Assembly: GCA_964522405.1 (NCBI GenBank)
Contig: CAZFTR010000001.1
Span: 116,686 to 180,685 of the forward strand
Source: an uncultured Gammaproteobacteria bacterium
Lineage (GTDB): Bacteria; Patescibacteriota; Patescibacteriia; Magasanikbacterales; UBA922
Direction: 5' to 3'
DNA length: 64,000 nt
Shown piece by piece: positions 12,098 through 51,246 of the stretch; position 1 is the first letter of the stretch; each line of letters begins with the position of its first letter. Below the pieces are notes generated by a model. That model ran no database searches and was not told where the DNA came from. It worked only from the letters and a program-made list of their open reading frames with translations. Made by a program: the position numbers and the translations under genes.

Positions 12098-12136
12098 GGG
12101 CGACGCGTCTGAGGGGAACCTCAGACGCGTCGCCAC
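12098..12136. repeat. Perfect 16-bp GC-rich hairpin (GGCGACGCGTCTGAGG-GGAA-CCTCAGACGCGTCGCC) at the distal edge of island 2
   Basis: Read directly; marks the AT/GC boundary next to the tRNA-Leu. Confidence 0.6.
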
Positions 12137-12422
12137 ACTCGCCGTCCTTGCCTGCGCTGTTGCGCAGACCCGCGTGGTTGGGGCGCCGTGCACCCCTTCC
12201 TTGCCTGGCCGCCGAAGCGACCTGTCGGTGCCCGGTATGGTACCGGAGCACTCCTGGCGTCGAAGCGCTCATCGTGGTGTCTCGCCGTTGCGATTCACCG
12301 GAGTCGGCGCGCTGGCGTGCGCCATTCTCGAGATGACCCTTGCAGTCGGTGCCGTCAGCAGGTGACGGCGGTTCCGTTGCCTTGAGCGATCATCTGTGCC
12401 CCCGAAGAGGCCTTCGGCGTGG

Positions 12423-13286
12423 CTACCAGCTGAAGCAGAAGTCGCTGCTCGTCGCCGTGTAGCCCGCCTCGTCGCAGCAGCCCGCGGTCACCCCGTTCGG
12501 GTTGTCGCCGCCCGCGCCGTAGTCGGTGTTCACGTCCTCGTTGGTCGCCGCCGTCACGTTCTCCGCCGCCGCGGTGGCCGTCTGGTTCAGGTTGTGCGGG
12601 AAGTCGCCCGTCGCAGCCGTCGCCGTGTTGGTCATGCCCGAGTTGCCAGTCTCCACCGTCTCGCCGCCGCCCGCGCCGTAGTCGGTGTTGCCCAGGTTGG
12701 CCTTGTTCGCGTCGAAGTCCGCCGTACCGCCGGTGTCGTTCGCCGCGTTCGCGCCGTAGTCGGTGTTCACCACCATCTCGATCTGGGTCGCGCCGTAGTC
12801 CACCAGGAAGGGGATGTCCACAGCCAGCGTGGTGTCCACCCGCATCAGGATCGCGGTCGCGCCGTGCTCGCCGTAGTTGTCCAGCATGGTCGCCCAGATC
12901 GCCGTCGCGTTCTCCGTCGCTGCACCCGCGTTGTCGTGCATCCACTGCCAGCCGTCGAAGGCCACCGTCTCGCGCGCCGCGCCGTAGTCGGTGTTGGTGC
13001 CCATGATGAGGTGCGCCAGCTCGTCGTCGGTCAGGGCCGCCTCCCGGTTCATGGCGAACCAGTTGTTGGCCGCGTCCAGCAGAACCCGGTTGCTGTTGCC
13101 GTCGTCGACGAAGGTCAACAGCAGGTTGCCGTTGAAGTCCACGTCCACCGTCAGGGTGGTGTGGGCCGGGGCGTCGACCTGATCGATGGTCGGCGTGTCC
13201 GGCTCGGCAGCCGCGATGCTGGTGGGCAGCACCAGCAGAAGCAGGACCGCGAATGCGGCCGTCAGGAACGAAAGTCTCCGTCTCAT
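12423..13286 (-). CDS. Secreted protein with six copies of an N(T)DYGA motif; high-GC codon usage
   Basis: N-terminal signal peptide (MRRRLSFLTAAFAVLLLLVLPTSIAAAEP). Repeated GTNTDYGAA, NTDYGANA, NTDYGAGG (x2), VDYGAT, DNYGEHGA. C-terminal Cys cluster CCDEAGY...FCFSW. RBS GGAGG sits 10 nt before the ATG. Third codon positions are almost all G/C, unlike the flanking genes. Confidence 0.7.
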   Translation of the reverse strand: MRRRLSFLTAAFAVLLLLVLPTSIAAAEPDTPTIDQVDAPAHTTLTVDVDFNGNLLLTFVDDGNSNRVLLDAANNWFAMNREAALTDDELAHLIMGTNTDYGAARETVAFDGWQWMHDNAGAATENATAIWATMLDNYGEHGATAILMRVDTTLAVDIPFLVDYGATQIEMVVNTDYGANAANDTGGTADFDANKANLGNTDYGAGGGETVETGNSGMTNTATAATGDFPHNLNQTATAAAENVTAATNEDVNTDYGAGGDNPNGVTAGCCDEAGYTATSSDFCFSW

Positions 13287-13351
13287 CTTAGGAATTCCTC
13301 CACAAGGTCATCAACTTCCCGCGCCAGGTTTGGTTCGGGATTGCATTATCC

Positions 13352-16993: not shown

Positions 16994-18133
16994 ATGAATA
17001 TTGCCATAGATATACGTTGCCTGATGAGCACTCAAAAAACAGGTGTTGCTGAATATACTTCAAGATTCTTGGATTCACTTTTAAGACAGAATACTGAAAA
17101 CCAGTATTTTTTGTTTTATAATTCACAGAATTTAGAGAATAAGAAAATTGAAAAATGGCAGGGAGAAAATATACATTATATAAAAACTGATTTTCCCAAT
17201 AAATTATTTAATTTAGGTATTTTTTTGTTTGGTTTTCCTAAGTTGGATAAATTGATTGAGTCTAAAATTAAAAAAGATTTGGCAGAGCCAGATTTTAAAT
17301 TAGACAGTTTTATTTCTCCAAATTTAAATTATACAGAAGTTTCCAAATCAGTTAAGTACGTCCTGGTAATTCACGATCTTAGTTTTGAGTTATTTCCTGA
17401 TACTTATTCTGCAAAGAGGCGATTGTGGCATAAAATTGTTTTTCCTAAAAAACAATGTCAGCGCGCAGATTTGATTTTAACTCCTTCTGAAAATACTAGG
17501 CAGGACTTGATAAAATATTTCAAATTAGATCAAAATAAAATTAAAGTATCTTATCCCAATCATCTATTTGGCTCAGAAAGTTCAGTAGGTTTTGAAAAAT
17601 TAAAAGAAAAATATCAATTGCCGGAAAAATATATTCTCTATCTAGGTACTCTTGAGCCCAGAAAAAATTTAGAGGCATTATTAACTGCATTTTCAAAAAC
17701 TAAAGCTAGGGATGGGGGATTTAAATTAGTAATTGCCGGCTCAAAGGGTTGGAAGTATAAAAAAATTCTAGAAGAAATTAAAAAAACAGATGGAGTAAAA
17801 TATATTGGCTATGTAGATGATGAAGATAAGGATGGATTATATAAAAATTCAAAATTATTTGTTTACCCTAGCCTGTATGAAGGTTTTGGTTTGCCAGTGC
17901 TTGAAGCCATGAGTAGTGGAGTTGCTGTGATTACCAGTAACAGATCTTCACTTGTTGAGGTCGGTGGTAATGCAGTGCATTATATAAACCCACTGAATAT
18001 TTCTGATATGATAATAGCTATAGATGAGGTTTTGGAGAATTCAGAATTAAATCAGGAATTGGTAAATAGGGGATATGAGCGGGTTGAGAAGTTTAATACT
18101 GAAGTTAGATTATTGGAATTATTGAGTAGGTAA
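16994..18133 (+). CDS. Glycosyltransferase family 4
   Basis: PSLYEGFGLPVLEAMSSGVAVITS motif. Confidence 0.8.
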   Translation: MNIAIDIRCLMSTQKTGVAEYTSRFLDSLLRQNTENQYFLFYNSQNLENKKIEKWQGENIHYIKTDFPNKLFNLGIFLFGFPKLDKLIESKIKKDLAEPDFKLDSFISPNLNYTEVSKSVKYVLVIHDLSFELFPDTYSAKRRLWHKIVFPKKQCQRADLILTPSENTRQDLIKYFKLDQNKIKVSYPNHLFGSESSVGFEKLKEKYQLPEKYILYLGTLEPRKNLEALLTAFSKTKARDGGFKLVIAGSKGWKYKKILEEIKKTDGVKYIGYVDDEDKDGLYKNSKLFVYPSLYEGFGLPVLEAMSSGVAVITSNRSSLVEVGGNAVHYINPLNISDMIIAIDEVLENSELNQELVNRGYERVEKFNTEVRLLELLSR

Positions 18134-18189
18134 GTTGGGTAGGAAAAAATATGTTATAATTTATTGGCTATTGGTTATTCACTAATAAT

Positions 18190-19320
18190 ATGAAAATTGG
18201 AATAGATGCTCGCATGTTCGGACCAGAACAGGCCGGACTGGGGAGGTACATAGAACAATTGATTTTACATCTTGAACACATTGATAAAAGCAATCAGTAT
18301 ATTTTGTTTTTAAAAAAAGATAATTTTGAAAAATATATTCCCAAGAATCCAAATTTTGAAAAAGTACTTGCAGATATAAGTTGGTATTCATGGGCAGAGC
18401 AATTTAAATTCAAGAGAATAATAAAAAAACAAAAATTAGATTTGATGCATTTTCCACATTGGAATGTTCCAATTTTTTATCGAGATCCATTTGTGGTTAC
18501 TATCCATGATTTGATTATGTATCACTATCCGCGTCATGAGGCAAGTACACTTGGACCAATTAGTTATTGGTTCAAAGACAGAGCTTCACGAGTAGTTTTG
18601 AATCATGCCATAAAAAAATCAAGGAAGATTTTTGTGACCAGTGAATTTACCAAACATGACTTAAACAAAACACTGGGGGTGAATTTGAATAAAATGGTTA
18701 CACTTTATCAGGCCCCATTTTTCAAAGAGCAAAGAAAAAGAACAAAAGAAGATCAAAAAGAATTTTTTGAAAAATTGAAAATTGAAAAACCTTACTTGCT
18801 CTATGTTGGAAATGCTTATCCTCATAAAAATCTAGAGAGGTTGGTACAAGCTTGGAATCTTTTTACTCGACAACATGGATTACATTTTCAATTAGTATTG
18901 GCAGGAAAAAGAAATTTTTTTTATGATCGCCTGTTTGAAAGTGAAACAGTAAAATCAAGTAATGGAATTATTTTTACAGATTTTCTAGCAGATGATGATT
19001 TACAATTATTGTATGATCATGCTCAGGCTTTTATTTTTCCTAGTCTTTATGAGGGATTTGGACTTCCTCCAATAGAAGCTATGTACCATGGTCTGCCGGT
19101 TGCCTCTTCAAATCAAACTTCTTTGCCAGAAGTATTGGGACGCTCAGCAATTTATTTTGATCCAACTAATATCGAGTACATGGCAACAAGTATTTATAAG
19201 ATACTTACTGATCAGAATTTAAGGCTAAATCTACAGCAAAATTCAAAGTATGAACTTAGACGTTTTTCTTGGGGATCTCTCTCAAGTAGGGCAGTAAAAG
19301 TTTATCAATCAATAGTTTAA
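18190..19320 (+). CDS. Glycosyltransferase family 4
   Basis: PSLYEGFGLPPIEAMYHGLPVASS motif. Confidence 0.8.
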   Translation: MKIGIDARMFGPEQAGLGRYIEQLILHLEHIDKSNQYILFLKKDNFEKYIPKNPNFEKVLADISWYSWAEQFKFKRIIKKQKLDLMHFPHWNVPIFYRDPFVVTIHDLIMYHYPRHEASTLGPISYWFKDRASRVVLNHAIKKSRKIFVTSEFTKHDLNKTLGVNLNKMVTLYQAPFFKEQRKRTKEDQKEFFEKLKIEKPYLLYVGNAYPHKNLERLVQAWNLFTRQHGLHFQLVLAGKRNFFYDRLFESETVKSSNGIIFTDFLADDDLQLLYDHAQAFIFPSLYEGFGLPPIEAMYHGLPVASSNQTSLPEVLGRSAIYFDPTNIEYMATSIYKILTDQNLRLNLQQNSKYELRRFSWGSLSSRAVKVYQSIV

Positions 19321-19412: not shown

Positions 19413-21998
19413 ATGGCTAAAAATACCAAACAAAAAGGAGTCACAGCTCGAACCAGAAAAATTCAAAAGAGGGCAGCTTTGAGAAGGTGTTCTCTTTGTG
19501 CTCGTGTAGGTCATAATAAGAAGACTTGTCTAGAAAATGTAGTTTCTGCCACCAAAAAACCAATCAAAAAAACTAATAACCAATTTAGCAGAAAAAAAAT
19601 ATCTACTCCAAAAGAAAATATTCAAAAAAAATCAGCCAGCAAAGTTTCGCATATTTTTGTAAACGCTCATCAGAAAACTCAAGAGTCAAAACATATAATT
19701 GATTTGAGTAAGAACAAAAAAGATATTTGGTCTTCGATAAAAGCCTACAGTGAAGAGCCGGCCAAGAAAACTAAACGTCATACTTTAAATTTTGCTCAGC
19801 TTGTAAAAAGTGCAAATAGTCAAAAAACTAAAGTAGCAAAAAATTTACCAAAAACTGCTGAGAAAAGAATACATAGCAAACCATTGGCGCTAAATTCTTT
19901 TTTCAGAGTAAAAGAATTTTTATCAGATGCTTTTTTTTCAATTCAAAATTTTTTCACTATTCCTGCCAAGTATTTTGATTTCAAAAAATTTGCATACAGC
20001 ATGGTAGTTTTTTTATTTTTGGTTTCAATTCCATTTCCAGCTGCCGGAGTTTATCGACAAGTAAAGGATGATACAAATTATATTGTGCAGAGAAGTACAG
20101 ATGCTTTTTTGGCTTTACAGTCTTCAACAGTGGCAGCGCTCTCAACCAATATTGAACAAGCTCAATTTGATTTAAATGAAGCACTGAGTGCTTTTACAGA
20201 TGCGCAATCACTTATAGATCGAGAGTACAAAGCATTGACTTATGTTGCCAGTGCTTTGCCTGTTGTTGGAAAACGAGTTCAGAGTAGACAGCAGTTGCTA
20301 GTGGCAGGACATCATATAGCGCTTGGAAATACTTATCTGGTAAAAGGAATCGAAGAAGCAAGTGAAAAAGAAGATTTAAATAATACTGACAGAATTTCAA
20401 TTTTAAAAGTTCACTTGAGAAGCGCTTTGCCACAGTATCAAGAAGCATTACTTAATCTTGCCAATGTTGATCACAGTGCTTTGCCAGTTGAGTTTCAAGA
20501 ATCTTTTTCTGAATTTAAAATACTTTTTGCAACTTTTATAGATGATATCAATGATCTTTCTGAAGTTATGAGTGGGATAGAGAAAATTCTTGGCTCAGAT
20601 CAGTTTAAACGATACTTGGTTTTATTTCAAAATCATCATGAGCTTCGAGCTACTGGGGGATTTGTAGGAAGCTTTGCTATTGTTGATGTTCAGAAAGGAA
20701 GAATTTTAAACATAGAAATTCCAGGGGGTGGTAGTTATGATTTACAAGGATACTTGGATACTTATCTGGCTCCGCCGTTGCCACTTCAGATTGCCAATGG
20801 AAGATGGGAATTTCAGGACTCAAATTGGTTTGCTAGTTTTCCAGCATCAGCCGAGAAAGCTTCTTGGTTTTATGAGCATTCTAGTGGTCGGACTGTTGAT
20901 GGGGTAATTGCAATAAATGCTTCAGTTTTGGAGAGGTTGGTAAAAGTTATGGGCCCGGTTTACAATGAAAATTATGATTTACTTATTAATTCAGAAAATG
21001 CCTTGTCGCAAATACAAAGAGAGGTAGAGGTTGAATATGATCGAGAAATCAATCAACCGAAGGCTGTCCTTTCAGAACTTCTGGATCAGATGTTAGCTGG
21101 ATTAAAAGATATACAACCTGTTCGTTTGGTTGATTTGCTTTCACAGATGCATAGTGCTTTGACAGAAAAAGAAATTCAAATTTATATGACAGATGATTCT
21201 CTCCAAAGAGATCTTTCAGAATTTGGATGGACAGGAGAATTGCTAGAAGAAAATCAAAATCAGGATTATCTTATGGTGGTAAATACCAATATTGGCGGAG
21301 AAAAAACTGATGCCAAAATAGATCAAGCTATTGACCATCAATCTCATGTTCAGTCCGATGGATCAGTAATTAATACAGTTATTGTCAGGCGTGAGCATTC
21401 TGGTAATTCAGGAGAGCTTTTTTATGGAAAAGAAAATATAAATTACTTAAGAGTTTATGTTCCAGAAGGATCAGAGTTGATAGAGGCAGGAGGATTTAGT
21501 TATCCAGAAGAAGAATCTTTTATGGTGCCTGAACCATGGTATGAAGATGATCAGGATTTGGAAGAGATCGCTCAAACTGAGACTATTCACGTAGGAAGTG
21601 GTACCAGAATTACCAATGAGTTTAAGAAAACGGCTTTTGCAAATTGGATTGTAACCAATCCTGGAAAAACTACAGAAGTATATTTTGTTTACAGACTTCC
21701 TTTCAAAGTGTTGGATACAGAGATGGCTGAAAATAGTGATAGAAATATTATCGAAGATATAGCTATGCTGGCTGGAAACAAGCTTGAGAATAGTCAATTA
21801 TCGCATTATTCTCTACTTTCTCAGAAGCAATCAGGAACAAATGCAAAATTAAATTCAACAATTATTTATCCTGATGGTTGGAATCCGGTTTGGCGTACAA
21901 ATGATGATGTGCATGTTACCTTGAATGGCGCAACTTATAATACTGGTTTAAATACAGACAAGGTATACGGAGTAGTTATGAAAAAAATAGAAGAATAA
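19413..21998 (+). CDS. Large membrane-anchored extracytoplasmic protein (DUF4012-like) with an N-terminal CCHC zinc-knuckle-like motif
   Basis: Lys-rich N-terminus containing CSLCARVGHNKKTC (CX2CX4HX4C), a single TM segment (FAYSMVVFLFLVSIPFPAAGVY), and about 650 aa after the TM. The gene context matches the DUF4012 proteins found next to CPR glycosyltransferase genes. Confidence 0.45.
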   Translation: MAKNTKQKGVTARTRKIQKRAALRRCSLCARVGHNKKTCLENVVSATKKPIKKTNNQFSRKKISTPKENIQKKSASKVSHIFVNAHQKTQESKHIIDLSKNKKDIWSSIKAYSEEPAKKTKRHTLNFAQLVKSANSQKTKVAKNLPKTAEKRIHSKPLALNSFFRVKEFLSDAFFSIQNFFTIPAKYFDFKKFAYSMVVFLFLVSIPFPAAGVYRQVKDDTNYIVQRSTDAFLALQSSTVAALSTNIEQAQFDLNEALSAFTDAQSLIDREYKALTYVASALPVVGKRVQSRQQLLVAGHHIALGNTYLVKGIEEASEKEDLNNTDRISILKVHLRSALPQYQEALLNLANVDHSALPVEFQESFSEFKILFATFIDDINDLSEVMSGIEKILGSDQFKRYLVLFQNHHELRATGGFVGSFAIVDVQKGRILNIEIPGGGSYDLQGYLDTYLAPPLPLQIANGRWEFQDSNWFASFPASAEKASWFYEHSSGRTVDGVIAINASVLERLVKVMGPVYNENYDLLINSENALSQIQREVEVEYDREINQPKAVLSELLDQMLAGLKDIQPVRLVDLLSQMHSALTEKEIQIYMTDDSLQRDLSEFGWTGELLEENQNQDYLMVVNTNIGGEKTDAKIDQAIDHQSHVQSDGSVINTVIVRREHSGNSGELFYGKENINYLRVYVPEGSELIEAGGFSYPEEESFMVPEPWYEDDQDLEEIAQTETIHVGSGTRITNEFKKTAFANWIVTNPGKTTEVYFVYRLPFKVLDTEMAENSDRNIIEDIAMLAGNKLENSQLSHYSLLSQKQSGTNAKLNSTIIYPDGWNPVWRTNDDVHVTLNGATYNTGLNTDKVYGVVMKKIEE

Positions 21999-25240: not shown

Positions 25241-25391
25241 ATTTAACTCTTAATAAAATTAATTTAAAAATTCTCTTATATGATTATTGTATCATATTTG
25301 TTCTTTTGGTAAATATTTTAATTCAAAAAGAGAGAGGTTTGTATGCAGCTTATTTTGCTTGCTGGTAGATAATTTCCATTAGTTTTTAGTG

Positions 25392-25463
25392 TGCCCCCGC
25401 CAGGAATCGAACCCAGATCAACGGTTCCGAAGACCGTTGTGTTATCCGTTACACCACAGGGGC
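25392..25463 (-). tRNA. tRNA-Arg (anticodon TCG)
   Basis: Hand-folded: acceptor GCCCCTG/CGGGGGC (one G-U pair), D arm GTGT-AACGGATA-ACAC, anticodon stem ACGGT/ACCGT with loop CTTCGGA, T loop TTCGATT. The T stem has two G-U pairs. Confidence 0.6.
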
Positions 25464-25551
25464 ATATAAACAATTAAACAACTAACAATTAACAACTAAC
25501 AAGTCAATTTAACGAGCATGTTAATTATTAATCAATTAGTTGTTAATTGTT

Positions 25552-25627
25552 TGGTGCGCCGTAAGGGATTCGAACCCCTGACCGTTTGGTTAAGAGCCAA
25601 CTGCTCTACCGACTGAGCTAACGGCGC
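25552..25627 (-). tRNA. tRNA-Lys (anticodon CTT), CCA encoded
   Basis: Textbook cloverleaf: GCGCCGT-TA-GCTC-AGTCGGTA-GAGC-A-GTTGG-CTCTTAA-CCAAC-GGTC-AGGGG-TTCGAAT-CCCTT-ACGGCGC-A-CCA. Confidence 0.85.
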
Positions 25628-25636
25628 TTTTCCGGA

Positions 25637-26437
25637 TTATCCCAAAGGATCTTCCGGTTTTCTTTCTAAAATTTCAACTTTTGGTCCTTTCCATTTTTTT
25701 ACTTCTATGGCGTTTTCTGCTGCTACGATCTGCGCTTCTTGCTTGCTTCCGCCAATTCCTTCAGCAATCTGTTCTCTGCCTAGGTAAATTCCCACTGTAA
25801 ATTCCTTGGCATGATCTGGTCCTTCTTCTTTTAGTACTTTGTAAGTAGGTGTTAGACCAACAATTTCCTGAGAAGCTTCTTGAAATCTAGACTTTGGATC
25901 CATCCACAGACCTAGCTCTAGTACTTCTCCCAATTTGCTAATAACCCATCTGGTAATAAATTGTTTGGCCAAATCCCAGCCTTTATCTACATATATTGAT
26001 CCGATTACAGCTTCAAGTGCATTGGCCAGTATATAATCACGCGCTTTGGTGTTTTCATCTTTTGACTCTCCATGACTTAGAAAAAGATAAGGTTCAAACC
26101 CGATCTCTCTTGCTACTGAAGCACACATTTTTGAATTTACCAGTGCTGCTCTCCAGTTGGTTAGTTCACCTTCTGGGTTTAAGTAGTTTTCAAAAAGATA
26201 TTCTGTAACTACAAGCTCAAGTACGGCATCGCCCAAAAATTCTAATCTCTCATTGTGAGCCAAAGGAAAATCACGATTTTCATTTAGAAATGAACGGTGT
26301 ACCAGCGCTTGTACAATATGATTTTTGTTGGTGAATTCTACACCAATGGCTTTTTCTAATTCTGCAAAGCCCTTTTGAGTATATTCAGGAATTGTTTCCA
26401 TATTTGCTGTGTTTAGCACACAGTTTGTAGTAACCAA
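25637..26437 (-). CDS. rnc: Ribonuclease III
   Basis: RNase III signature ERLEFLGDAVLELVVTEYLF and a C-terminal dsRBD (GSKQEAQIVAAENAIE). Confidence 0.88.
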   Translation of the reverse strand: MVTTNCVLNTANMETIPEYTQKGFAELEKAIGVEFTNKNHIVQALVHRSFLNENRDFPLAHNERLEFLGDAVLELVVTEYLFENYLNPEGELTNWRAALVNSKMCASVAREIGFEPYLFLSHGESKDENTKARDYILANALEAVIGSIYVDKGWDLAKQFITRWVISKLGEVLELGLWMDPKSRFQEASQEIVGLTPTYKVLKEEGPDHAKEFTVGIYLGREQIAEGIGGSKQEAQIVAAENAIEVKKWKGPKVEILERKPEDPLG

Positions 26438-27347: not shown

Positions 27348-28349
27348 ATGAGAATAACTGAAATTAATTCTAGAAATGAGTGGGAAAAAGCAGTAAGTCA
27401 GTCAGAGATGATTGAATTTTTGCAATCCTGGAATTGGGGTGAGTTTCAAAAAACAGCAGGAAATCGTCCAATACGCTTGAGTTTTGTTGATCAGCAGAAA
27501 CAAATCCGCTGCCTTCAATGTTTTGAACATAGAATTGGATCTAATTTTAAATATCTTTATTTGCCAAGAATTGTTGCTAATGCAGAAATTATAGAATCTT
27601 TGAAAAGTTGGGCAGCTGAAAAAAACTTTGTCTTTTTAAGAGTTGAACCTGCCAGAGAATTTAGTATAGATAAATTTAATCTAAAAAATGTTATAATAAA
27701 AAATAGACAACCAAGACATACTAGTATTTTAAATTTAGAAAAAACAGAAGATGATTTGCTTTCAGCAATGCATAGCAAGACCAGATATAATATTCGTTTG
27801 TCAGGCAGAAAAGGGGTTGATATAAAAGACCGAAAAGATCTGGGTATTTTTTGGAGATTAAATCAGCAAACCACGCAGAGAGATAAGTTTCGCAGTCACC
27901 AGAAATCTTATTATGAGAAGATGCTTGCGTCAGATATGTGTTATCAGCTTACTGCCTGGTATGATCACTTGCCAATTGCTTCAAATCTTTATTTATCTCA
28001 TGACAGGAGAACAACTTACCTGCACGGCACTTCGTCAAATCAGCATCGATCAGTTATGGCGCCGTATTTATTGCAATGGCAGGCCATAAAAAAAGCCAAG
28101 CAAGATGGACATAGGGAATATGATTTTTGGGGGGTAGCAGAGCCGGCAGAGCGAATAGAACATCCTGATTTAGAAAGTTTTCACAAGAACACTTGGAAAA
28201 AATCAGATCCTTGGAGTGGAGTGACCAGGTTCAAGGCTGGATTTGACGGTCAGGTTGCGGCTTATCCAGATGCTTTTGATGTTCCTGTTAAATCATCTTT
28301 TTATAAAATGTATAGGTTTCTAAGGAAGGTTTTGAGAAAAGGAGAATAA
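27348..28349 (+). CDS. FemAB-family peptidyltransferase (peptidoglycan interpeptide bridge formation, FemX-like)
   Basis: N-terminal ...FLQSWNWGEFQ... block and overall size are typical of FemAB / lipid II aminoacyltransferases. Confidence 0.55.
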   Translation: MRITEINSRNEWEKAVSQSEMIEFLQSWNWGEFQKTAGNRPIRLSFVDQQKQIRCLQCFEHRIGSNFKYLYLPRIVANAEIIESLKSWAAEKNFVFLRVEPAREFSIDKFNLKNVIIKNRQPRHTSILNLEKTEDDLLSAMHSKTRYNIRLSGRKGVDIKDRKDLGIFWRLNQQTTQRDKFRSHQKSYYEKMLASDMCYQLTAWYDHLPIASNLYLSHDRRTTYLHGTSSNQHRSVMAPYLLQWQAIKKAKQDGHREYDFWGVAEPAERIEHPDLESFHKNTWKKSDPWSGVTRFKAGFDGQVAAYPDAFDVPVKSSFYKMYRFLRKVLRKGE

Positions 28350-28379
28350 TATAATTTTATTGGCTGTCAGTTATTAATT

Positions 28380-28982: not shown

Positions 28983-29169
28983 AATAACTAATAATTAGCA
29001 ACTAACAATTAACAAGTGATTGGTGATTGAATGCTGTCAATTGAATTAAACCGCTTGCCAAACACAAGGGATCCCTCGATTACGTTTTTCTTTCAGAAAA
29101 CTTCACTCGGGATGACAGTGCTGTCATCCGCATAATCAGGATTATCCGTAAATCCGAATACCCCAACAC

Positions 29170-33219: not shown

Positions 33220-36200
33220 TTGCTGATTTTTATGTTTAAAAATCAAAATAGAAAATTAAAAACCTCATTGATAATACTGTTATCAAGTTTTGTTATTTTG
33301 GTTCCGGTTCTTGCCGGTTTACTAAAAATTGATCAGGCTCATGCTCAGGCCGCTGCAGCAGCAAAAGCAGCAGCAAAAGTTGCCACAGAAGCAGCATCAG
33401 GAGCAGCAAATTCAGCTCCGGCAGTGCCAACTCATGAGTTGAGTAGTGTTCCGAAGAAAATGCAAAAAATAGAAGATACTCTAGACGATACTTTTTTATC
33501 TACAGGACTTTCAGCTCTTATTAGTGGAGCTTCATATTTTTTAAACCGCCTTGCTTATGATGGTGCTAGGTGGATTGCTTCGGGTGGAAAAGGGCAGGGA
33601 GCACTTGCTTTTCAAGATGGATTTGGAGAGTACATCTTAAAAGTTGGAGGAGACAGTGTTGCTGATGCTGTTCAGCAGTTGGGAAATCCCTATGGATTAA
33701 ATCTCTGTAAACCCTCAAATTTAGATGTGCAGGTTTACCTGCAACTAGGATATAGAAAAGTTTATGATGGGCTTGGTGGAGAAGGTGGTCCTAAACCAAA
33801 ATGTTCATGGTCAGAGCTCAAGGATAAAATTGAATTTCAAACTTCAGGCGACGGAGTGCGATATTTTGGAGACACTATTGTCGAAGGTTTCCAAAACTCT
33901 TTTAGAGTTGAAGATAGTGATTTTGGAATTGCACTTGGAGCAGCTGGACAGCTAGACAGAATATATGCCCAAAAACAACAAGAAGCAGAGGGTGAACAAT
34001 TGGTTGGTGAAGGGTTTAAGCCACTTAAGAGTATGTTGTCTGGAAAAACTCTAACTCCGGCACAGATAATAAAAGAAGAAGCAAAATCTATTACTGCCAA
34101 ACATCAGGGTCAGATGACGGCTAATCAGATATCTGGAGTTTATGGCTCAGGAAGTATTGAGGCTCTGGTGGGTGCTGCTTCAATTTTTTTGACTACACTT
34201 ATATCTGATCTTTCCAAAAATATTTTAACTGATGGTTGGTTGACAGATCCTGGTTCAGGTGGAGGGGGTAGTTTATCTTCAAATACAGAAGTTGTAATCA
34301 ACGAATTTGCTTCAGCCATAAACCAAAATAGAAGAGCTGCAGAAAATGCCTTTAAATTTTTGTTTACAGCAGTTCCTGTTAAGCAGAGTTCCAGTTATCC
34401 GCTTTTGGATGATTTTGCCTCATGTCCTGATGATCCTGCTTTAAACCATCCTAAATTAACAAATTGTGTTATTGACCGAGCCTTTAGAGAAGCAATAGAT
34501 CGTGGAAACCAGGGGAGTAGTTTGACTATAAGAGAAGCCATGCTAAAGGAAAACGGAGAACTTCTCCACGGAGGTTGGCCTCTAATATCTCCTCTGAGAG
34601 AAGAAGAACATACAGAAGTAAAAGATTGTTATAGAAATGGATATTGCTACTCAAATATACAGAAATTGAGAAAAGCTCGTATCCTTCCTCTTGGTTTTGA
34701 GATCGCAGCCCTTCGTTCTGATCCGGATCAGCCCTGGACTCTTAAGCAGGTTGTAGATGGATTCAACGATTGTGCGGTTGATCCTGATTCTGGAAATATT
34801 GTCCAAAGTTCAAAAAAACCTTTTTGTCATTTGATTGATCCAAATTGGATTATACGCTTACCTGATCCGCGTTGTGAATCACTTGTTTATGGGCCAAATT
34901 TGATTTCCAATGCTGCGCCTACAAGACATAGTGAATGTGCTGATATTTCTACTTGTTTACTTGAAGATGAAAATGGCCAATGTATTGGTCAATATGGTTA
35001 TTGTCTAAAAGAAAAAAATGTCTGGAATATGCCGGGTCAATCTTGCCCTGCTCAGTTTAGCACTTGTGACACTTATACCAATACTAAGACTGGGAAAATA
35101 GAAAGCTTTTTATCAAGAACTGTAGACTATGATCAATGTACTAGTGATGCTGCTGGCTGTAGAGCATATAGTATTTACCAGGAAGACGGTGCATGGAGAA
35201 ATAGTAGTCAAACAGATGAGCTTTTAAAAACCAAAGGAGAGGCGCAAACCATGTATTTTGGAAAACTGGCAAGCCATGCAACTTGTCCTATTGATGTTGA
35301 TTTAAATGCTGATGGTTGTTCTGCATTTCTTCAGGTAACTTTTGACAGCGAAGTTGGTAATTATCAGAAAATAGCAGCTGCCACACCTCTTTATATGCAA
35401 AAGGCTCCAAATTATCTAGGTTGTTATGATACTGATTTATCTACCAAAGAAATTATAGATTGGCCAATTTCAGAAACTGATTTAACCCTTCTGACTGATA
35501 GACCTGAACAATGTGCAGACTATGCTCAGGTTTGTGTAGAAGATGAAGCAGGTTGTAGAAAATATCGCGCAGCTGAATCCGGAGTTCAAGACGTGGTTGG
35601 TATTGTGGGAGCAAATTCTTGTCCTGCTGAATGCGTAGGTTATGATACTTTCAAACAGGAAGAAAGTAATTTTGAACCTTCAATATTCCCAATGTATTTT
35701 ATTGCTGACGGTGTTGGGTCTAGAAGTTGCCCAGGACAGTATTCCAGCTGTTCAGAATTTACCAATATTGGCGCTGCCGGAGAAGGTGGAGAAGAGCTTG
35801 AGTATTTTGTTGATATTAAATATTGTGAAAAACCAGAAGAGGACAATGAAAAAACCTATTATTCTTGGGAAGGATCTGACAGTGCTGGATATGTTTTGAA
35901 AGTTCACAAAATGAAACAAATTGATCAAGAGGAATATACTTCTTATATTTTTAAAGTGGGTCAAGCAATTCAATTTAATCCTGGAGATAATTTAAGTTTT
36001 TATGAGATTGGATCACCGGCATATGCCAAAGATTCAGTAGAAAACTTAGAAGAATATTATCATGCTTGTAATGAGGAAAATTATAAGCAACTCATAAATG
36101 GAGAAAATCAGTTAGGAGATATAGACGAAGGTTGTGCTGCAATTTATGATAATGATGGAAATATTTATTATAGAATTTTATCAGAAACTGTAACTGTATC

Positions 36201-39200
36201 TGATCAATGTACACCTTATAGAAAAACTAATACTTATCTTGAATTGGATTCAGATTTAAATACTAGTGAACTTTGTTCATACAAATCAGGACTTTGGTCA
36301 GATGCTAATCTCAGTTGTGAGAGATGTTTCAATGGCGGAGAATATCTAGATGGGTCTTGTGTTTATTGGACTATTCCAAGTGAGTCTCTTTCATGTCAAG
36401 GTCCTGCAGGACAAGAAAATTTGTACAATGGTTGTCGAACTTATACTGGAAATGCAGTAAATGATCCTGTTCAGAAAATATTCTTTGATTTTGAACCTCA
36501 GCCATCTGATGATGATCCTGATGGTTTGAACAATGCCAAAGATGGTTGGTCTGTAGGAGAAATTACTCTTGACGCACAGCAAGTGGGACTTCATTCATTG
36601 CAAATTGATTCTGGTATTGTTGCTTTAGATGTGCCTGCTGAGATATTTACTGAGGATAAATGGTATGAATTAACTTTTTGGGCTAGAAGCGCTGTTGAAC
36701 AAAACCTAGTTGTGAAACTGATTCAGATTGCTCAGGATGTTGGCAATTTCAATTCTAATCCAAATATAGAAGGTGGGGAGATCCCAGTTAAAATAAATAC
36801 CAATTGGCAGGAATATAAATTAGGTCCGGTTCAATTTGCTGGAAGTACTGACTTGGAGGTGACGGCTATGTTCCAGGCAGTTTCTCTTGGGGTGAGTAGT
36901 GCTTATTCAATTGATAATGTTCGTATAGTGGAAGTTCCAAAATTTCACCGCATTAAAAATTCATGGCAACAAAAAGATACTGGTCCACTTGGTGAAGAGG
37001 TTGTTTTGGATGTTCCTTTGCTCTGTGACACTACACCTACTGATCCGTTCCCAGGTGAACATCTTGGCTGTAGTGCATATACGGACAAGACTGCAGATCC
37101 TGATCTGCCAGTCTATACTTCTGGATTTGAAAAATTGTGCAGAGTCAAAGCAGAAGGTTGTCGTCCTATAGTAGATACTTTTAATACAGTGAGCCATGAA
37201 GATCCGGGCAATCAAGATAATACCTTAACTCATGTATACAATGCATGGTGTGAGGAATTGGCAGAGGACATTTGTCAGGTTAAACACATTGATCAGGTAT
37301 TGGGAGAATGTCAGGTTGGAAAAGGTAAAAATGGTTGTTATATTCCAAAAATTGTCATTCCTGCCGGTGTGGAATTCAAAGATTTGTTAAATACCACAGA
37401 TTCAACAGTGGTTGTACCTGCTGATACAGAGGAAACTACACCAATTTATCTAACCTACAATACTGAGTATGCATGTTCTTCCAGCTTTATGGGTTGTAAA
37501 GCTGGTGCTCTTGAAGAGCAATCTCTACCAACAGAAAATCAAATTTCCTATGAGTTTAGTGAGCAAATGGTCTATGATAATCCGACTTTTTATGAACAAA
37601 CTCTTTGTAAATCAGAGGAGTTAGCTTGTGAAGAATACCGACATGGTAACAGTTTGGCTTACTTCAAAGATCCATATCTTACTGGTTCCAAACTGTGTAA
37701 ATATCGAGAAAATTTAGACTCAGGTGAGAACTATGGATGGTTTATGGAGGGTATAGGAAAATGTACTGGAACAGAAGATCTCTGTAGTTCAAGTGATGAT
37801 TGTTCTGAGGATGTTGCTTGTGATCTTGAGATAGATGTTCCTTGTTATGATAATTATCTGCAGGCTGGTGGAGAAAATGGCATTTGGTCAAATGATGCCT
37901 TATTTCATCCAATAACAGGAGAGAGTTTGTATGATGGTTTTGTTGGATTATGTGAATCACAATATAATAATTGTACTGAATATTTGGATCCACAGGATAG
38001 TTCTGGAGCTGATCCAGATGGTAAACCTTATTACGTTATAGCAGACAACCAATTGATTTCCGGTCAGTCTGAGTGTGCCGGACAGGTTAGTTTGCACGAG
38101 GGTTGTGTCTTGTTTGATCAAACAGACAACCCAAATAAGTTTTATGACAGTGAAGCAAGTTATAAGAAAAGCGCTGCTACAGATAATCCAAAATATCAAC
38201 CGGTTACACCAATTACCAGTGGTAATCTGGACGCAAATGTAGTATTGAAAGTTGAAGCTAATAGAAGCTGTAGCGAATGGTTGTCATGTAAAAATAGTAT
38301 CAAGATTACTGATGAAAATGGAATTCCAAAAAATGTTTGTAATGAATTCAAAGCTTGCAAGGAATCAGATGGTTCAGCGGGCTGTGCTAATTGGGCTGTT
38401 GATTCTGCTTACGAAACAGAGCCTTTGACTCAAGAGAAATATATTAAGCGTGATACATCCTGGTATGGAGAAGAATACACAGGATATTCACTGTTTGATA
38501 AATATCAGATTAGTAGTATTGCTTATGTTTCTGTAGAAGACGAGCCATTTTCATATATGGCTTACGAATTACATCCTGGAGTTGCTCCAAATAATAACTG
38601 TATAGGACAAGCTGCTTGGAGTAAATGTGGTTTTGATAATGGTGGTAGATGTCATAATGAAAAATGTATCTATACTATGAGCGGTCCTTTTTTACCTGAC
38701 TCTGATACAAAAGATGAAATCGTGGCAGAGTTAGAGGGCGGAACTTGTAAGGCTTTCCCAGAGGATAGTTCACCATATGATTTTAGTTTTGCAGAGCAAC
38801 CAACGCTTCATGAGACTGCCTATGATGACGGGCCTGATAGATATACTTTTGAAACCAAGAAAAAAGGATATGGTGGAGCAAATATTTGTCAGAGTGGAGA
38901 GAATTGCTCCTGTGAGTACAAGAAAATAGCTTATGGTAATGGTACAACTGATTACTTGAGCTATAGTGAAGATAAATATGCCAAAGGTGTTTGTACGGGA
39001 GGAGATTTTGCTCAGAAATCTTGTAGAATAAATTCTGACTGTGGTGCGGGTGGTTCTTGTAGTAGGATCACGAGTATTGAAACTCATATAGGTTTGAGGG
39101 GTCTGTGTATGGAATATGATTTGAGCAGACCAATAGACAAAGATAAGGATATTTACCCGTGTCTCACTTGGTTGCCGGTGGATACTGCGGCGACAGTTCT

Positions 39201-42697: not shown

Positions 42698-42798
42698 GGG
42701 CCGTGCCGAAGCGCGTCCACGAGTTCACCGAAGTGAGACTTGTGGGCGCGCTTGGCTTGGCGTGCGACTGCTGAGAAAACGAGTTCGACTGCCGTGTA
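42698..42798 (-). other. Conserved GC-rich structured 3' element, copy A (nested about 60-nt helix with a CGAA tetraloop)
   Basis: gccgaagcgcg / ccacgag / tcac-CGAA-gtga / cttgtgg / cgcgcttggc nested pairing; about 75 nt identical to copy B at 43657-43761. Confidence 0.5.
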
Positions 42799-43326
42799 CT
42801 ACGGCTTGAGCTCCAGCGTGTAGTCGGGGCCGTCGTTGTCGAAGATCGTGATCTCGATTCCCTCGGAGGTCTTGATGACCTCGTAGTACCAGCCTGCCGG
42901 CTTGTCGAGGGGGAAGACCACAGCGGCCTCCTCGGGGTTGTCGTGCCAGGTGATCAGCGGACCGGTGATCATGGGCTTCTTGCCGAAGCCGATCATGGTC
43001 ACCTCACAGGTGTGACCACCGAACCCGTTCTCGATCATCTTGGTCGTGATCTCCTCGCCCCAGCCCTTGAAGTGCTTCCACTTGCCCGCGATGTTCGGGC
43101 AGATGTCCACCACGGGGATGGGCTCAGGGGCAGGCTCTTCTTCCGGGGTGGGCTCTTCAGGTCGCGGGATCGTGTCCGGCTCGACGAACCGGGGCTGTTG
43201 GGCTGTGTCTTCTGGGATCTGATCTCGGTTAGTGCTCCGAGGGTAGTTGGAGCTACAGCTGGTAAAAAGAAAAGCCACGAGCGTGGCCACGAGAATGAGG
43301 ATGTTTTTCCTCTCCATGGTGGCCAC
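42799..43326 (-). CDS. Lipoprotein paralog A with a conserved C-terminal domain; high-GC codons
   Basis: Lipobox LFTSC, Pro/Glu-rich linker, conserved block VVDICPNIAGKWKHFKGWGEEI...GFGGHTCEV...WHDNPE...GWYYEV.KTSEGIEIT. RBS AAGGAGGTG upstream. Confidence 0.7.
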   Translation of the reverse strand: MATMERKNILILVATLVAFLFTSCSSNYPRSTNRDQIPEDTAQQPRFVEPDTIPRPEEPTPEEEPAPEPIPVVDICPNIAGKWKHFKGWGEEITTKMIENGFGGHTCEVTMIGFGKKPMITGPLITWHDNPEEAAVVFPLDKPAGWYYEVIKTSEGIEITIFDNDGPDYTLELKP

Positions 43327-43500
43327 CTCCTTGCAGTAGCAGCCGGAGCTATAGTGGAATTTCCACTACACTTCTAGCTACCACTAGCAGGAGTTTTTTG
43401 TCGCACGCTATAGATCTTGCCTTTTGGCTAGGTTTAGCCAAGCAGACAAAGATATTGAAAAGAGCTTTTAGTCATCAAAGACTGATAAATATTAGACTAT
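43327..43500 (-). promoter_or_regulatory. Conserved 5' leader, copy A, with palindromes (TAGTGGAA-A-TTCCACTA; GCTAGTGGTAGC; TTGGCTAAACCTAGCCAA) and an upstream TTGACA-17-TCTAAT promoter-like site
   Basis: Nearly identical to 44278-44450. The palindromes were read directly; the promoter call is weaker (the -10 is non-consensus). Confidence 0.45.
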
Positions 43501-43656: not shown

Positions 43657-43761
43657 GGGCCGTGCCGAAGCGCGTCCACGAGTTCACCGAAGTGAGACTT
43701 GTGGGCGCGCTTGGCTTGGCGTGCGACTGCGAGGAAAAAACGAGAGTTCGACTGCCGTGTA
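43657..43761 (-). other. Conserved GC-rich structured 3' element, copy B
   Basis: See copy A. Confidence 0.5.
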
Positions 43762-46474: not shown

Positions 46475-46518
46475 ATAATGTTAGTCACTAATTGTTGTTT
46501 ATTGGTCACTGAATAAAT

Positions 46519-51139: not shown

Positions 51140-51246
51140 CTAGCTAACAGTTTACAGTTGATAGTTTTCAGTTTAAAAAATGTTTTTTAAAATTTCCAAT
51201 TAATAACTGTAAACTGTTAACTGATTACTACTAACTAATAAAAAAT

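What the first reader, a model, noticed from the sequence alone, without database searches (positions are those of the whole stretch)
25466..25551. Family of intergenic inverted repeats built from AACTAACAATTAACAA-like words at at least four loci
Between tRNA-Arg and tRNA-Lys, CAATTAACAACTAACA (25483-25498) is repeated as its reverse complement at about 25531-25546, around a 30-nt spacer. The same 17-mer CAACTAACAATTAACAA recurs at 28996-29012 after tsaC. Related TAACTG/CAGTTA words form inverted repeats at 44676-44705 before aspS. A further pair is at 51131-51148 and 51201-51219 before scpB (CTAACAGTTTACAGTT … AACTGTAAACTGTTA). All sit in short intergenic gaps immediately upstream of plus-strand genes. 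They may be a MITE-like repeat family, a shared operator for one regulator, or attenuator-like structures.
Basis: seen in the sequence. Interest (0 to 1): 0.5.

Follow-up and report, generated by a model that had tools for sequence, protein, structure and literature searches.

The report
Seven-base tandem repeats forming hairpins
The flagged repeats are short runs of a 7-base unit, sometimes paired with an inverted copy so that they fold into hairpins; they fill gaps between genes in this Magasanikbacteria (candidate phyla radiation) genome and belong to a known but poorly understood class of bacterial simple repeats, here seen in a lineage where I found no earlier report.

Summary
The words are real, about 3 nt off the stated coordinates. 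Their unifying feature is a 7-nt tandem period, not inverted symmetry. All four loci are arrays of a degenerate unit AACWRNN: 17 hits against 0.9 expected, 16 of them in the four loci.

Only two loci form significant hairpins:
- The tRNA-Lys/tRNA-Arg spacer, 32 bp, -29.4 kcal/mol on the transcribed minus strand.
- The scpA/scpB spacer, -26.9 kcal/mol.

The window comes from a Magasanikbacteria genome. In 1.08 Mb from about 65 related genomes, period 7 gives 86 strict arrays. The next best period gives 21 and shuffles give about 1. Outgroup taxa (650 kb) have none. Words differ between genomes (102 words in 164 arrays). About a quarter of arrays have an inverted partner nearby. The same gene junctions carry arrays with unrelated words in different species. 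Many arrays lie inside genes.

Best reading: heptanucleotide simple-sequence repeats, like cyanobacterial STRR, TAACTGA and Xanthomonas GGGAATC repeats. I infer that they arise by replication slippage and that their transcripts form long AU-rich hairpins likely to be cut by RNase III. They are not a MITE, a T-box, an attenuator or a canonical terminator. A single-regulator operator is unlikely. This is a new member of a known kind, of moderate interest.

The parts
25467..25503 (+). Tandem array TAAACAAT TAAACAAC TAACAAT TAACAAC TAACAAG (two 8-mers and three 7-mers). In the minus-strand transcript it is the 3' arm (UUGUUAG/UUGUUAA units) of the spacer hairpin.
   Evidence: Sequence. TRF finds period 7, 3.7 copies, 89% matches, and period 14 with score 61. 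Lag-7 scan.
25519..25551 (+). Degenerate inverted partner of the array (TGTTAATTATTAATCAATTAGTTGTTAATTGTT). It is the 5' arm in the minus-strand transcript.
   Evidence: Inverted repeats I1-I4. Fold.
25469..25551 (-). Predicted RNA hairpin that fills 83 of the 88 nt between tRNA-Lys and tRNA-Arg. It has about 32 bp with several G.U pairs.
   Evidence: MFE -29.4 kcal/mol, z -7.5, 0 of 200 shuffles as good. The opposite strand reaches only -17.8.
25391..25627 (-). Context: tRNA-Arg(tcg) 25391-25463 and tRNA-Lys(ctt) 25552-25627. tRNA-Lys starts 9 nt after the stop of rnc (25637-26437), all on the minus strand.
   Evidence: ARAGORN, Rfam, NCBIfam RNase III TIGR02191 at 6e-65. The rnc, tRNA-Lys, tRNA-Arg order is conserved in relatives.
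28983..29031 (+). Direct array of seven units starting 1 nt after the tsaC stop: AATAACT AATAATT AGCAACT AACAATT AACAAGT GATTGGT GATTGAA. No significant hairpin.
   Evidence: Sequence. TRF period 14 and 7. Lag-7 scan. Fold z -0.6. Identical in Logan contig L081.
44674..44708 (+). Direct array of five units ending 5 nt before the aspS ATG (44714): AACTACT AACTGTC AACTGTT AACTACA AACTATT. It lies in the probable 5' UTR; a promoter-like site TTGCAA-16-TAAAAT is at 44592-44619.
   Evidence: Sequence. Lag-7 scan. Pattern search. Promoter scan. Fold z -1.2. Identical in Logan contig L001.
51140..51174 (+). Distal arm after the scpA stop: CTAGCTA ACAGTTT ACAGTTG ATAGTTT TCAGTTT, which is the reverse-complement orientation of AAACTGN units.
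   Evidence: Sequence. TRF period 7, 4.1 copies. Lag-7 scan.
51198..51246 (+). Proximal array running up to the scpB ATG (51247): AATTAAT AACTGTA AACTGTT AACTGAT TACTACT AACTAAT AAAAAAT. Its first units pair with the distal arm. It contains one exact TAACTGA (51218-51224).
   Evidence: Sequence. Hairpin -26.9 kcal/mol, z -5.2, equal on both strands. Pattern search.
18767..18789 (+). Weak three-unit array (TTGAAAAA TTGAAAA TTGAAAAA) inside the GT4 glycosyltransferase gene. It lies near the position where orthologues in related genomes carry strict heptamer arrays.
   Evidence: TRF period 7, 3.0 copies, score 39. Sequence. Orthologue arrays at 520-600 nt from the ORF start.
46475..46518 (+). Possible degenerate member, below threshold: the aspS-downstream spacer with TTAGTCACT ... 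TTGGTCACT words 21 nt apart. Similar sub-threshold spacers occur at 18160-18189 (TTATTGG CTATTGG TTATTCA) and 28350-28379.
   Evidence: Read by eye. Did not reach 15 of 21 in the lag-7 scan.

Best explanation
The loci are heptanucleotide simple-sequence repeats: short arrays (3-7 units) of a degenerate 7-nt unit, AACWRNN in this genome. They occupy tolerated gaps between genes.

Inferred origin: the arrays arise and turn over by slipped-strand mispairing in 7-nt register. Inverted partner arrays arise or are kept matched by intra-strand template switching between the arms. This would explain why the period, but not the word, is shared across the lineage.

Inferred consequence: where both arms exist and the region is transcribed, the RNA folds into a long AU-rich hairpin. 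The 32-bp hairpin that fills the tRNA-Lys/tRNA-Arg spacer is long enough to be a substrate for RNase III, which is encoded immediately upstream in the same orientation. Cleavage there would separate the two tRNA precursors. The arrays abutting the aspS and scpB start codons form SD-less 5' leaders, as described for TAACTGA repeats.

Shown here: the periodicity, its excess, its restriction to this lineage, the enrichment of inverted pairing, and the predicted folds.
Inferred, not shown: slippage, template switching, transcription and RNase III cleavage.
For: - The 7-nt period marks exactly the four loci. The AACWRNN x3 pattern gives 17 hits against 0.92 expected.
- Lineage-wide excess. At 17 or more matches of 21, 1.08 Mb of Magasanikbacteria DNA has 86 arrays at lag 7. 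Any other lag gives at most 21, apart from its harmonic lag 14, and shuffles give about 1. Outgroup loci have none. An independent metagenome set agrees: 15 in 406 kb of relatives, 0 in 486 kb of outgroups.
- Intergenic density is about 5.4 times the coding density (36 intergenic and 50 in ORFs, with 12% of the DNA intergenic).
- The word is not conserved: 102 canonical words among 164 arrays.
- Orthologous junctions carry arrays of unrelated words or none. The tRNA-Lys/tRNA-Arg spacer ranges from 0 to 1594 nt. The scpA|scpB gap is under 40 nt in 13 of 21 relatives, and 87-173 nt and filled with inverted, repeat-built (mostly 7-nt-period) hairpin sequence in the others.
- An inverted partner lies within 160 nt for 21-29% of arrays, against 2-3% in a reverse-only control.
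- Hairpin folds: -29.4 kcal/mol (z -7.5) and -26.9 kcal/mol (z -5.2).
- rnc is adjacent.
- Published precedents. Heptameric SSRs are over-represented in many bacteria, and polymerase slippage has been proposed as the cause (Mrazek 2007, as cited in PMC4679880 and PMC4692102). In Xanthomonas the same inter-gene positions carry arrays that vary in length and sequence (PMC4692102). In H. influenzae a transcribed (ATCTTTC)n array forms one arm of a long 5'-UTR hairpin that RNase III cuts (PMC12721329).
Against: - No direct evidence for slippage. The only near-identical sequences available are 100% identical over two arrays, and the related genomes are too divergent (about 72% nucleotide identity) to read indels.
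- All four loci in this window share one degenerate word. Within genomes, distant arrays are more alike than between genomes (distance of 1 or less: 18% against 7%, p 0.003). Pure local slippage does not predict this.
- Arrays recur at the same codon positions of the same genes in many species. That needs either long persistence with word turnover, or selection.
- The window's tRNA spacer folds much better on the transcribed strand (-29.4 against -17.8), which hints at RNA-level selection at this locus. Relatives show no such bias (7 against 7).
- Why the period is 7 remains unexplained.
Confidence: 0.6

Rival explanations
1. The arrays are binding sites for a multimeric, sequence-specific RNA- or DNA-binding protein that reads a triplet (AAC) every 7 nt. 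The analogues are HutP on UAG-N4 repeats and the omega repressor on contiguous 7-bp heptads. Binding would control translation initiation or transcription of the downstream genes (aspS, scpB).
For: - All four loci share AACWRNN with strict 7-nt spacing.
- Two arrays end 0-5 nt before start codons that lack a Shine-Dalgarno sequence. This is the arrangement MacGregor described for TAACTGA repeats and interpreted as post-transcriptional regulation (PMC4679880).
- Some word sharing exists among distant arrays within a genome.
Against: - 102 different words in 164 arrays across close relatives, so there is no conserved specificity.
- Arrays also lie between two tRNA genes, directly after a stop codon, and inside ORFs.
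- Orthologous genes in relatives lack the arrays altogether.
- No candidate binding protein was identified.
- HutP and omega are recalled from general knowledge and were not tested here.
Confidence: 0.13
2. The hairpins are selected functional RNA structures. They could be intercistronic or 3'-end stem-loops acting as weak terminators, decay barriers or processing sites, in the manner of REP/BIME stem-loops. On this view the heptamer periodicity is only how such stems are built in this lineage.
For: - Almost every tRNA-Lys/tRNA-Arg spacer of 24 nt or more in relatives folds into one hairpin starting 0-4 nt after tRNA-Lys. Some are canonical terminator-like stems with a U-tract (L008, L009, L010, L014, L040), and the heptamer-type stems are often followed by T-runs.
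- The ACACGAT-word hairpin is conserved in a subclade, with 8 of 26 pairs showing double changes.
- The window's spacer uses G.U pairs only on the transcribed strand.
- Left arms are A-rich and right arms T-rich in 21 of 29 pairs (p 0.02).
Against: - Two of the four window loci have no significant structure.
- Several relatives have spacers of 0-18 nt with no hairpin, and 13 of 21 relatives have an scpA|scpB gap of 39 nt or less without arrays, so the structure is dispensable.
- No sense-strand stability advantage in 11 intergenic pairs, 18 in-ORF pairs or 14 tRNA-spacer hairpins.
- The covariation term in RNAalifold is not favourable (+0.82).
- None of the arrays meets a terminator consensus.
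Confidence: 0.2
3. The loci are copies of a miniature mobile element (MITE, REP or SDR-like) that inserts into intergenic gaps.
For: - An exact 17-mer is shared between two loci 3.5 kb apart.
- The same word recurs at several loci within single genomes, for example AAAACTC in L030, CGGATTT in L045 and AAATGAT in L026/L029.
- The gaps look like insertions relative to species whose genes abut.
Against: - There is no common element with defined ends, no terminal inverted repeats and no target-site duplications.
- Loci differ in length and architecture (direct only, or inverted pairs).
- Beyond the 17-mer, similarity is only the heptamer word.
- Three unrelated exact 17-mer pairs occur in the same window by chance.
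- No transposase was seen next to the loci, though the window was not fully annotated.
Confidence: 0.04

Closest known systems
Heptanucleotide long simple-sequence repeats (LSSR; Mrazek 2007 as cited in PMC4679880 and PMC4692102) and cyanobacterial STRR heptamers (Calothrix/Nostoc, cited in PMC4692102)
   Same: - Tandem 7-nt units in short arrays.
- Period 7 is over-represented relative to other unit lengths.
- Mostly intergenic.
- Restricted to particular lineages.
- Function unknown; polymerase slippage has been proposed.
   Different: - AT-rich words in a candidate phyla radiation (Patescibacteria) lineage. No report was found for this lineage.
- There is no single dominant genome-wide word across the lineage.
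- A large share of arrays (50 of 86) lies inside ORFs at recurrent positions.
TAACTGA direct repeats of marine Beggiatoaceae, some Cyanobacteria and Bacteroidetes (MacGregor 2015, PMC4679880)
   Same: - Nearly the same word: the window has TAACTGT, AAACTGT, CAACTGT, TAACTAC and one exact TAACTGA.
- 2-7 units.
- Forward orientation ending 0-5 nt before start codons that lack a ribosome-binding site (aspS, scpB).
- In-ORF copies occur in the reverse orientation. Peptides like LSTISY and LSAMSY in relatives resemble the LSVISYQ predicted for TCAGTTA.
   Different: - Units are degenerate, not exact TAACTGA tandems.
- Related heptamers are also repeated (TAACAAY).
- Inverted pairs are common here, whereas there was 1 in 170 in BOGUAY.
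- Other genomes of the lineage use unrelated words.
GGGAATC repeats of Xanthomonas and GGGGA(C/T)T repeats of Nostoc (Rehm 2015, PMC4692102)
   Same: - Heptameric intergenic SSRs, typically about 4 units.
- Some occur as inverted pairs able to form stem-loops.
[quoted passage not shown]
   Different: Those are G-rich and can form G-quadruplexes. The arrays here are AT-rich and cannot.
Haemophilus influenzae hmw (ATCTTTC)n 5'-UTR hairpin processed by RNase III (PMC12721329)
   Same: A transcribed heptamer array forms one arm of a long imperfect hairpin, paired with a non-periodic complementary arm. Such a hairpin is a double-stranded RNA substrate for RNase III.
   Different: - Here there are 5 units rather than 11 or more.
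- The hairpin lies in a tRNA spacer or operon junction, not upstream of an adhesin gene.
- Phase variation and cleavage are untested.
REP/BIME intercistronic palindromes of enterobacteria (recalled from general knowledge)
   Same: Imperfect palindromes in short gaps between co-directional genes. They fold in mRNA and are dispensable at any given site.
   Different: - REPs have a conserved family sequence and are mobilised by RAYT transposases.
- Here the only shared feature is the 7-nt period, and no RAYT was seen.

Membership tests
Heptanucleotide SSR (LSSR / STRR-type) | Head-to-tail copies of a 7-nt unit, at least 3 copies | tested here: met
   TRF finds period-7 arrays at 25477-25502, 28989-29015, 51147-51175 and 51205-23. 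Units were parsed from the sequence.
Heptanucleotide SSR (LSSR / STRR-type) | Period 7 over-represented against other periods and against shuffled sequence | tested here: met
   In the window, lag 7 marks the four loci while other lags give 0-2 intergenic hits. In the lineage, 86 arrays at lag 7 against 21 at most for other lags apart from the harmonic lag 14, and about 1 in shuffles. An independent set gives 15 arrays, with 0 in outgroups.
Heptanucleotide SSR (LSSR / STRR-type) | Preference for non-coding DNA | tested here: met
   In the window, 5 of 6 segments lie in the 12% of intergenic DNA. In the lineage the intergenic density is about 5.4 times the coding density, but 50 of 86 arrays are in ORFs.
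Heptanucleotide SSR (LSSR / STRR-type) | Same inter-gene position in related genomes, with variable length and sequence | tested here: met
   The tRNA-Lys/tRNA-Arg spacers and the scpA|scpB junctions carry arrays of unrelated words, or none.
Heptanucleotide SSR (LSSR / STRR-type) | Unit-number polymorphism within populations (slippage) | tested here: inconclusive
   Two independent assemblies are identical over two arrays. Related genomes are too divergent for indel calls. Read-level data are needed.
TAACTGA repeats (MacGregor 2015) | Direct tandem copies of exactly TAACTGA | tested here: not met
   One exact TAACTGA (51218-51224). The neighbouring units are TAACTGT, AAACTGT and TTACTAC.
TAACTGA repeats (MacGregor 2015) | Forward orientation ending a few nt before a start codon, usually without a ribosome-binding site | tested here: met
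   The aspS array ends 5 nt before the ATG, and the scpB array runs up to the ATG. No GGAG-type motif is present in either. This does not apply to the tRNA spacer.
TAACTGA repeats (MacGregor 2015) | [quoted passage not shown] | tested here: not met
   TAACAAY arrays occur in the same window. The lineage uses 102 words.
MITE / small mobile palindromic element | Several near-identical full-length copies with terminal inverted repeats and target-site duplications | tested here: not met
   Only a 17-mer is shared. With up to 3 mismatches all 5 hits fall at the tRNA-spacer and tsaC-downstream loci, so no further copies were found. Architectures differ between loci.
Intrinsic (Rho-independent) terminator | G+C-rich stem followed by a U-tract | tested here: not met
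   No terminator-like site coincides with any array. The stems are AU-rich.
T-box or other aminoacyl-tRNA synthetase leader upstream of aspS | Match to an Rfam leader or riboswitch model | tested here: not met
   Rfam at gathering threshold finds only RNase P and four tRNAs in the window.
RNase III-processed SSR hairpin (H. influenzae hmw type) | A heptamer array forms one arm of a long (over 20 bp) RNA hairpin | tested here: met
   The tRNA spacer forms about 32 bp at -29.4 kcal/mol, z -7.5, on the tRNA-coding strand.
RNase III-processed SSR hairpin (H. influenzae hmw type) | The hairpin is transcribed and cleaved by RNase III | not testable with these tools
   rnc is present and adjacent. 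Cleavage needs RNA end-mapping or an in vitro assay.
Operator made of contiguous heptads (omega/pSM19035 type; recalled from general knowledge) | One fixed heptad word, repeated in direct or inverted order at promoters of a regulon | tested here: inconclusive
   A degenerate word is shared within the window. However, promoter-like sites are at chance level, the locations include a tRNA spacer and ORFs, and the word is not conserved in relatives.

The most novel reading that the evidence does not exclude
Magasanikbacteria may maintain heptamer arrays actively and for a purpose. Arrays recur at the same codon positions of cell-envelope genes in dozens of species: the FemAB-family peptidoglycan-bridge enzyme, GT4 glycosyltransferases and a DUF4012 protein. 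Each species has its own word, often with two mutually complementary arrays flanking a conserved segment.

This could be a lineage-wide contingency system, meaning phase or sequence variation of surface-biosynthesis genes by gain or loss of one 7-nt unit. It could also reflect a dedicated heptamer-generating or hairpin-dependent mechanism. On either reading the intergenic arrays in this window would be the non-coding face of that process.
Probability: 0.12. Interest if true: 0.7.

Novelty: new member of a known kind. Interest (0 to 1): 0.42.

Why it matters
Heptameric simple repeats are a long-noticed but unexplained oddity of a few bacterial lineages: cyanobacteria, Xanthomonas and giant sulfur bacteria. 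Finding the same phenomenon in an ultra-small candidate phyla radiation lineage has three consequences.

- It widens the phylogenetic range. Here the arrays are AT-rich, many form hairpins, and the word differs in nearly every genome.
- It argues that the 7-nt period itself is what is generated or selected, rather than any particular word or binding protein.
- It offers a compact comparative system (about 1 Mb genomes, many species) for asking why the period is 7.

There are also practical points. These arrays mark places where short-read assemblies may be fragile. They explain otherwise puzzling 90-170 nt gaps inside operons such as scpAB. The in-ORF arrays in envelope genes are candidate phase-variable sites in organisms that live attached to hosts.

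Tried and rejected
- RNA-level selection tested by strand asymmetry (G.U pairs). Only the window's tRNA spacer shows it. In 11 intergenic pairs, 18 in-ORF pairs and 14 heptamer-type tRNA spacers from relatives there is no sense-strand advantage. It was rejected as a general property.
- Covariation in the ACACGAT-word spacer subclade. The hairpin is conserved, but the covariation term is not favourable and only 8 of 26 pairs show a double change. This is not decisive.
- Unit-number indels between related genomes. Pairwise alignments of L037/L039 and L026/L029 are only about 72% identical and unreliable.
- Strain polymorphism through exact-protein look-ups. Two Logan contigs were found and both are identical to the window. 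ScpB is not on record.
- Canonical promoters and terminators at the arrays: at chance level, with none coinciding.
- Rfam at gathering threshold over the window.
- A lineage-wide consensus word: none, 102 words.
- The exact 17-mer as proof of a family: rejected as a standalone argument, because three unrelated 17-mer pairs occur in the same window.
- GC-rich islands: no Rfam, Pfam or blastn match. They remain unexplained.
- The three whole-database protein searches, structure prediction and fold search were not used, because no protein question turned out to be decisive.

Full report
**What is there**

The flagged interval is the 88-nt spacer (25464-25551) between tRNA-Arg(tcg) (25391-25463) and tRNA-Lys(ctt) (25552-25627). 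Both tRNA genes are on the minus strand, and tRNA-Lys starts 9 nt after the stop of an RNase III gene (25637-26437, minus). CAATTAACAACTAACA is at 25486, and the 17-mer CAACTAACAATTAACAA is exact at 25479 and 28999. CTAACAGTTTACAGTT is at 51144, and its 15-nt complement is at 51205. Two independent Logan assemblies are identical to the window over the tsaC-downstream and aspS-upstream arrays, so the repeats are not assembly artefacts.

**The real common feature is a 7-nt tandem period**

Tandem Repeats Finder reports period-7 arrays at 25477-25502, 28989-29015, 51147-51175 and 51205-51223. Reading the sequence gives these units:
- tRNA spacer: TAAACAAT TAAACAAC TAACAAT TAACAAC TAACAAG.
- After tsaC: AATAACT AATAATT AGCAACT AACAATT AACAAGT GATTGGT GATTGAA.
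- Before aspS: AACTACT AACTGTC AACTGTT AACTACA AACTATT.
- After scpA: ACAGTTT ACAGTTG ATAGTTT TCAGTTT.
- Up to the scpB ATG: AACTGTA AACTGTT AACTGAT TACTACT AACTAAT.

I ran a lag-k autocorrelation scan that asks for at least 15 matches in 21 positions. At lag 7 it returns exactly these loci plus one weak genic hit. After merging, five of six segments lie in the 12% of the window that is intergenic. Lags 4-13 other than 7 give 0-2 intergenic hits. The degenerate pattern (AACWRNN)x3 with at most one mismatch has 17 matches against 0.92 expected (maximum 3 in 100 shuffles), and 16 of them are in the four loci. The shared exact 17-mer alone would not be convincing, because three unrelated 17-mer pairs occur in the same window.

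**Only two loci are hairpins**

On the tRNA-coding strand the tRNA spacer folds into one hairpin of about 32 bp covering 83 of 88 nt (-29.4 kcal/mol, z -7.5). The opposite strand reaches only -17.8, because several pairs are G.U. The scpA/scpB spacer folds at -26.9 kcal/mol (z -5.2), equally on both strands. The arrays after tsaC and before aspS are direct repeats with no significant structure (z -0.6 and -1.2).

**Origin and relatives**

RNase III relatives place the window in Candidatus Magasanikbacteria (Patescibacteria), with a best match of 82% identity. The order rnc, tRNA-Lys, tRNA-Arg is conserved, but the spacer ranges from 0 to 1594 nt. It takes several forms:
- Canonical terminator-like stems in some species.
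- Heptamer-built hairpins with other words in others: an ACACGAT subclade, AAAACTC in L030, AAATTCC in L035 and AAACACC in L058.
- GC-rich palindromic elements in others.
- Nothing at all in several species.

With a stricter scan (at least 17 of 21), 1.08 Mb from these genomes holds 86 arrays at lag 7. That compares with 21 at lag 8, 14 at lag 9, 5 or fewer at lags 4-6 and 10-11, 52 at the harmonic lag 14, and about 1 in block shuffles. The 164 kb from other taxa hold none. An independent set fetched through AspS from JGI metagenomes agrees: 15 arrays in 406 kb of relatives and none in 486 kb of outgroups. The phenomenon is therefore specific to this lineage, and it is defined by the period.

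**Words, partners and positions**

- Among 164 arrays there are 102 different canonical words.
- Distant arrays within a genome are somewhat more alike than arrays from different genomes. A distance of 1 or less occurs in 18% against 7% of pairs (p 0.003).
- About a quarter of arrays have an inverted partner within 160 nt, against 2-3% for a reverse-only control.
- At the scpA|scpB junction, 13 of 21 relatives have a gap of 39 nt or less. The others have 87-173 nt filled with inverted, repeat-built hairpin sequence, mostly of 7-nt period, with unrelated words such as CCAATAG, AGTAAAT and TACGAAT.
- Upstream of aspS, several relatives carry other short-period (7-9 nt) repeats in the leader.

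**An unexpected finding**

More than half of the strict arrays (50 of 86) lie inside long ORFs that have clear homologues in the window. The FemAB-family gene (window 27348-28349) carries, in some 20 species, two arrays at about 220-240 and 300-340 nt from the start. They sit between the conserved YLYxPR, FxFxRIE and NRQP motifs. Each species has a different word, and the two arrays are often mutually complementary, with fold z down to -8. GT4 glycosyltransferase and DUF4012 orthologues show the same behaviour. The window's own FemAB gene lacks arrays. Its GT4 gene has a weak three-unit array at 18767-18789.

**Tests of function**

- No sense-strand folding advantage exists in relatives.
- The ACACGAT hairpin is conserved but shows little covariation signal.
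- No array meets a terminator consensus, and promoter-like sites are at chance level.
- Rfam finds no leader or riboswitch.

**Interpretation**

The loci fit the known class of heptanucleotide simple-sequence repeats. This class was described as over-represented in many bacteria, and polymerase slippage was proposed as the cause (Mrazek 2007, as cited in PMC4679880 and PMC4692102). Known examples are STRR heptamers in cyanobacteria, GGGAATC in Xanthomonas (same inter-gene positions, variable length and sequence, some inverted pairs; PMC4692102) and TAACTGA in Beggiatoaceae. The TAACTGA repeats mostly end just upstream of start codons that lack a ribosome-binding site (PMC4679880). The window's AACTGN units are close to TAACTGA and take the same position before aspS and scpB, but they fail the exact-word criterion.

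The H. influenzae hmw leader shows experimentally that a transcribed heptamer array can form one arm of a long hairpin that RNase III cuts (PMC12721329). That is the best mechanistic analogue for the tRNA spacer hairpin, which sits next to rnc.

I therefore commit to this account (confidence 0.6). The arrays are slippage-generated heptamer repeats, and their arms are kept matched by template switching. Their transcripts form long AU-rich hairpins, and the hairpin in the tRNA spacer is probably cleaved by RNase III. The periodicity, its excess, the lineage restriction, the inverted-pair enrichment and the folds are shown here. Slippage, template switching, transcription and cleavage are inferred.

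**Rivals**

- A protein reading AAC every 7 nt (0.13).
- Selected RNA stem-loops (0.2).
- A mobile element (0.04).

**Novelty and interest**

I found no report of such repeats in Magasanikbacteria or Patescibacteria. The kind itself is known, so this is a new member of a known kind, of moderate interest. The recurrent in-ORF arrays in envelope genes are the part most worth following up.

Noticed in passing
Related loci L007, L018, L024, L026, L029, L037, L039, L043-L047, L049, L050, L053, L055, L057, L063, L074 (orthologues of window 27348-28349); also orthologues of window 18190-19320, 16994-18133 and 19413-21998: Heptamer arrays lie inside protein-coding genes at recurrent codon positions: the FemAB family at about nt 220-240 and 300-340 of the ORF, GT4 glycosyltransferases, and DUF4012. 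Each species has its own word. The two FemAB arrays are often mutually complementary and flank a conserved segment. The ORFs stay open through the arrays.
   Followed up: partly
window 12100-13300; 42760-43483 and 43719-44442; also 1-300 and 55330-55640: Non-coding islands of 60-71% G+C sit in a 35% G+C genome. The 42.7-44.4 kb island is two direct copies of about 730 nt that are 82% identical. They have no Rfam hit, no Pfam hit for their ORFs and no homologue in the 160 fetched loci. They could be large structured RNAs or foreign DNA. A Logan contig breaks at the edge of this island.
   Followed up: partly
L005, L006, L007, L017, L027, L034 and L033, L051, L057 (tRNA-Lys/tRNA-Arg spacers); window 57443-57532: A second, GC-rich family of palindromic elements occupies the same tRNA spacer in other species (for example ...CCCCTCTAACTCCCCCTGATAGGGGGAG...). 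The window has a GC-rich palindrome of similar style at 57443-57532 (CCACGTCAGTCGCGACTGACGTGG). The tRNA spacer looks like a hot spot for hairpin-forming insertions.
   Followed up: no
L018, L026, L033, L035, L073 (tRNA-Lys/tRNA-Arg spacers): Some longer spacers contain tRNA-like fragments or extra tRNA-like sequences that ARAGORN did not call, for example GCACCCGTAGTTCAACGGATAGAACATCGGTC in L026 and L035.
   Followed up: no
window 18160-18189, 28350-28379, 46475-46518: Three further short gaps immediately upstream of start codons contain heptamer-like words just below the detection threshold (TTATTGG CTATTGG TTATTCA; TTAGTCACT...TTGGTCACT). The word CTATTGG also forms arrays in L033 and L093.
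   Followed up: partly
window 29031-29169: Between the tsaC-downstream array and the MFS transporter gene lies a 140-nt stretch that is richer in G+C. It has an ATG-initiated reading frame of about 40 codons and short stems. It could be a small ORF or an RNA element and is not annotated by any library tried.
   Followed up: no
window 33220-42624: A single ORF of 3134 codons begins with a GCA-rich low-complexity region (33355-33408). It was not examined.
   Followed up: no
L008-L012, L014, L029, L031-L035 and others: Many GenBank records titled 'uncultured Gammaproteobacteria bacterium' carry RNase III 72-78% identical to the window's and the same rnc, tRNA-Lys, tRNA-Arg synteny as Magasanikbacteria. 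The organism labels appear to be wrong.
   Followed up: no
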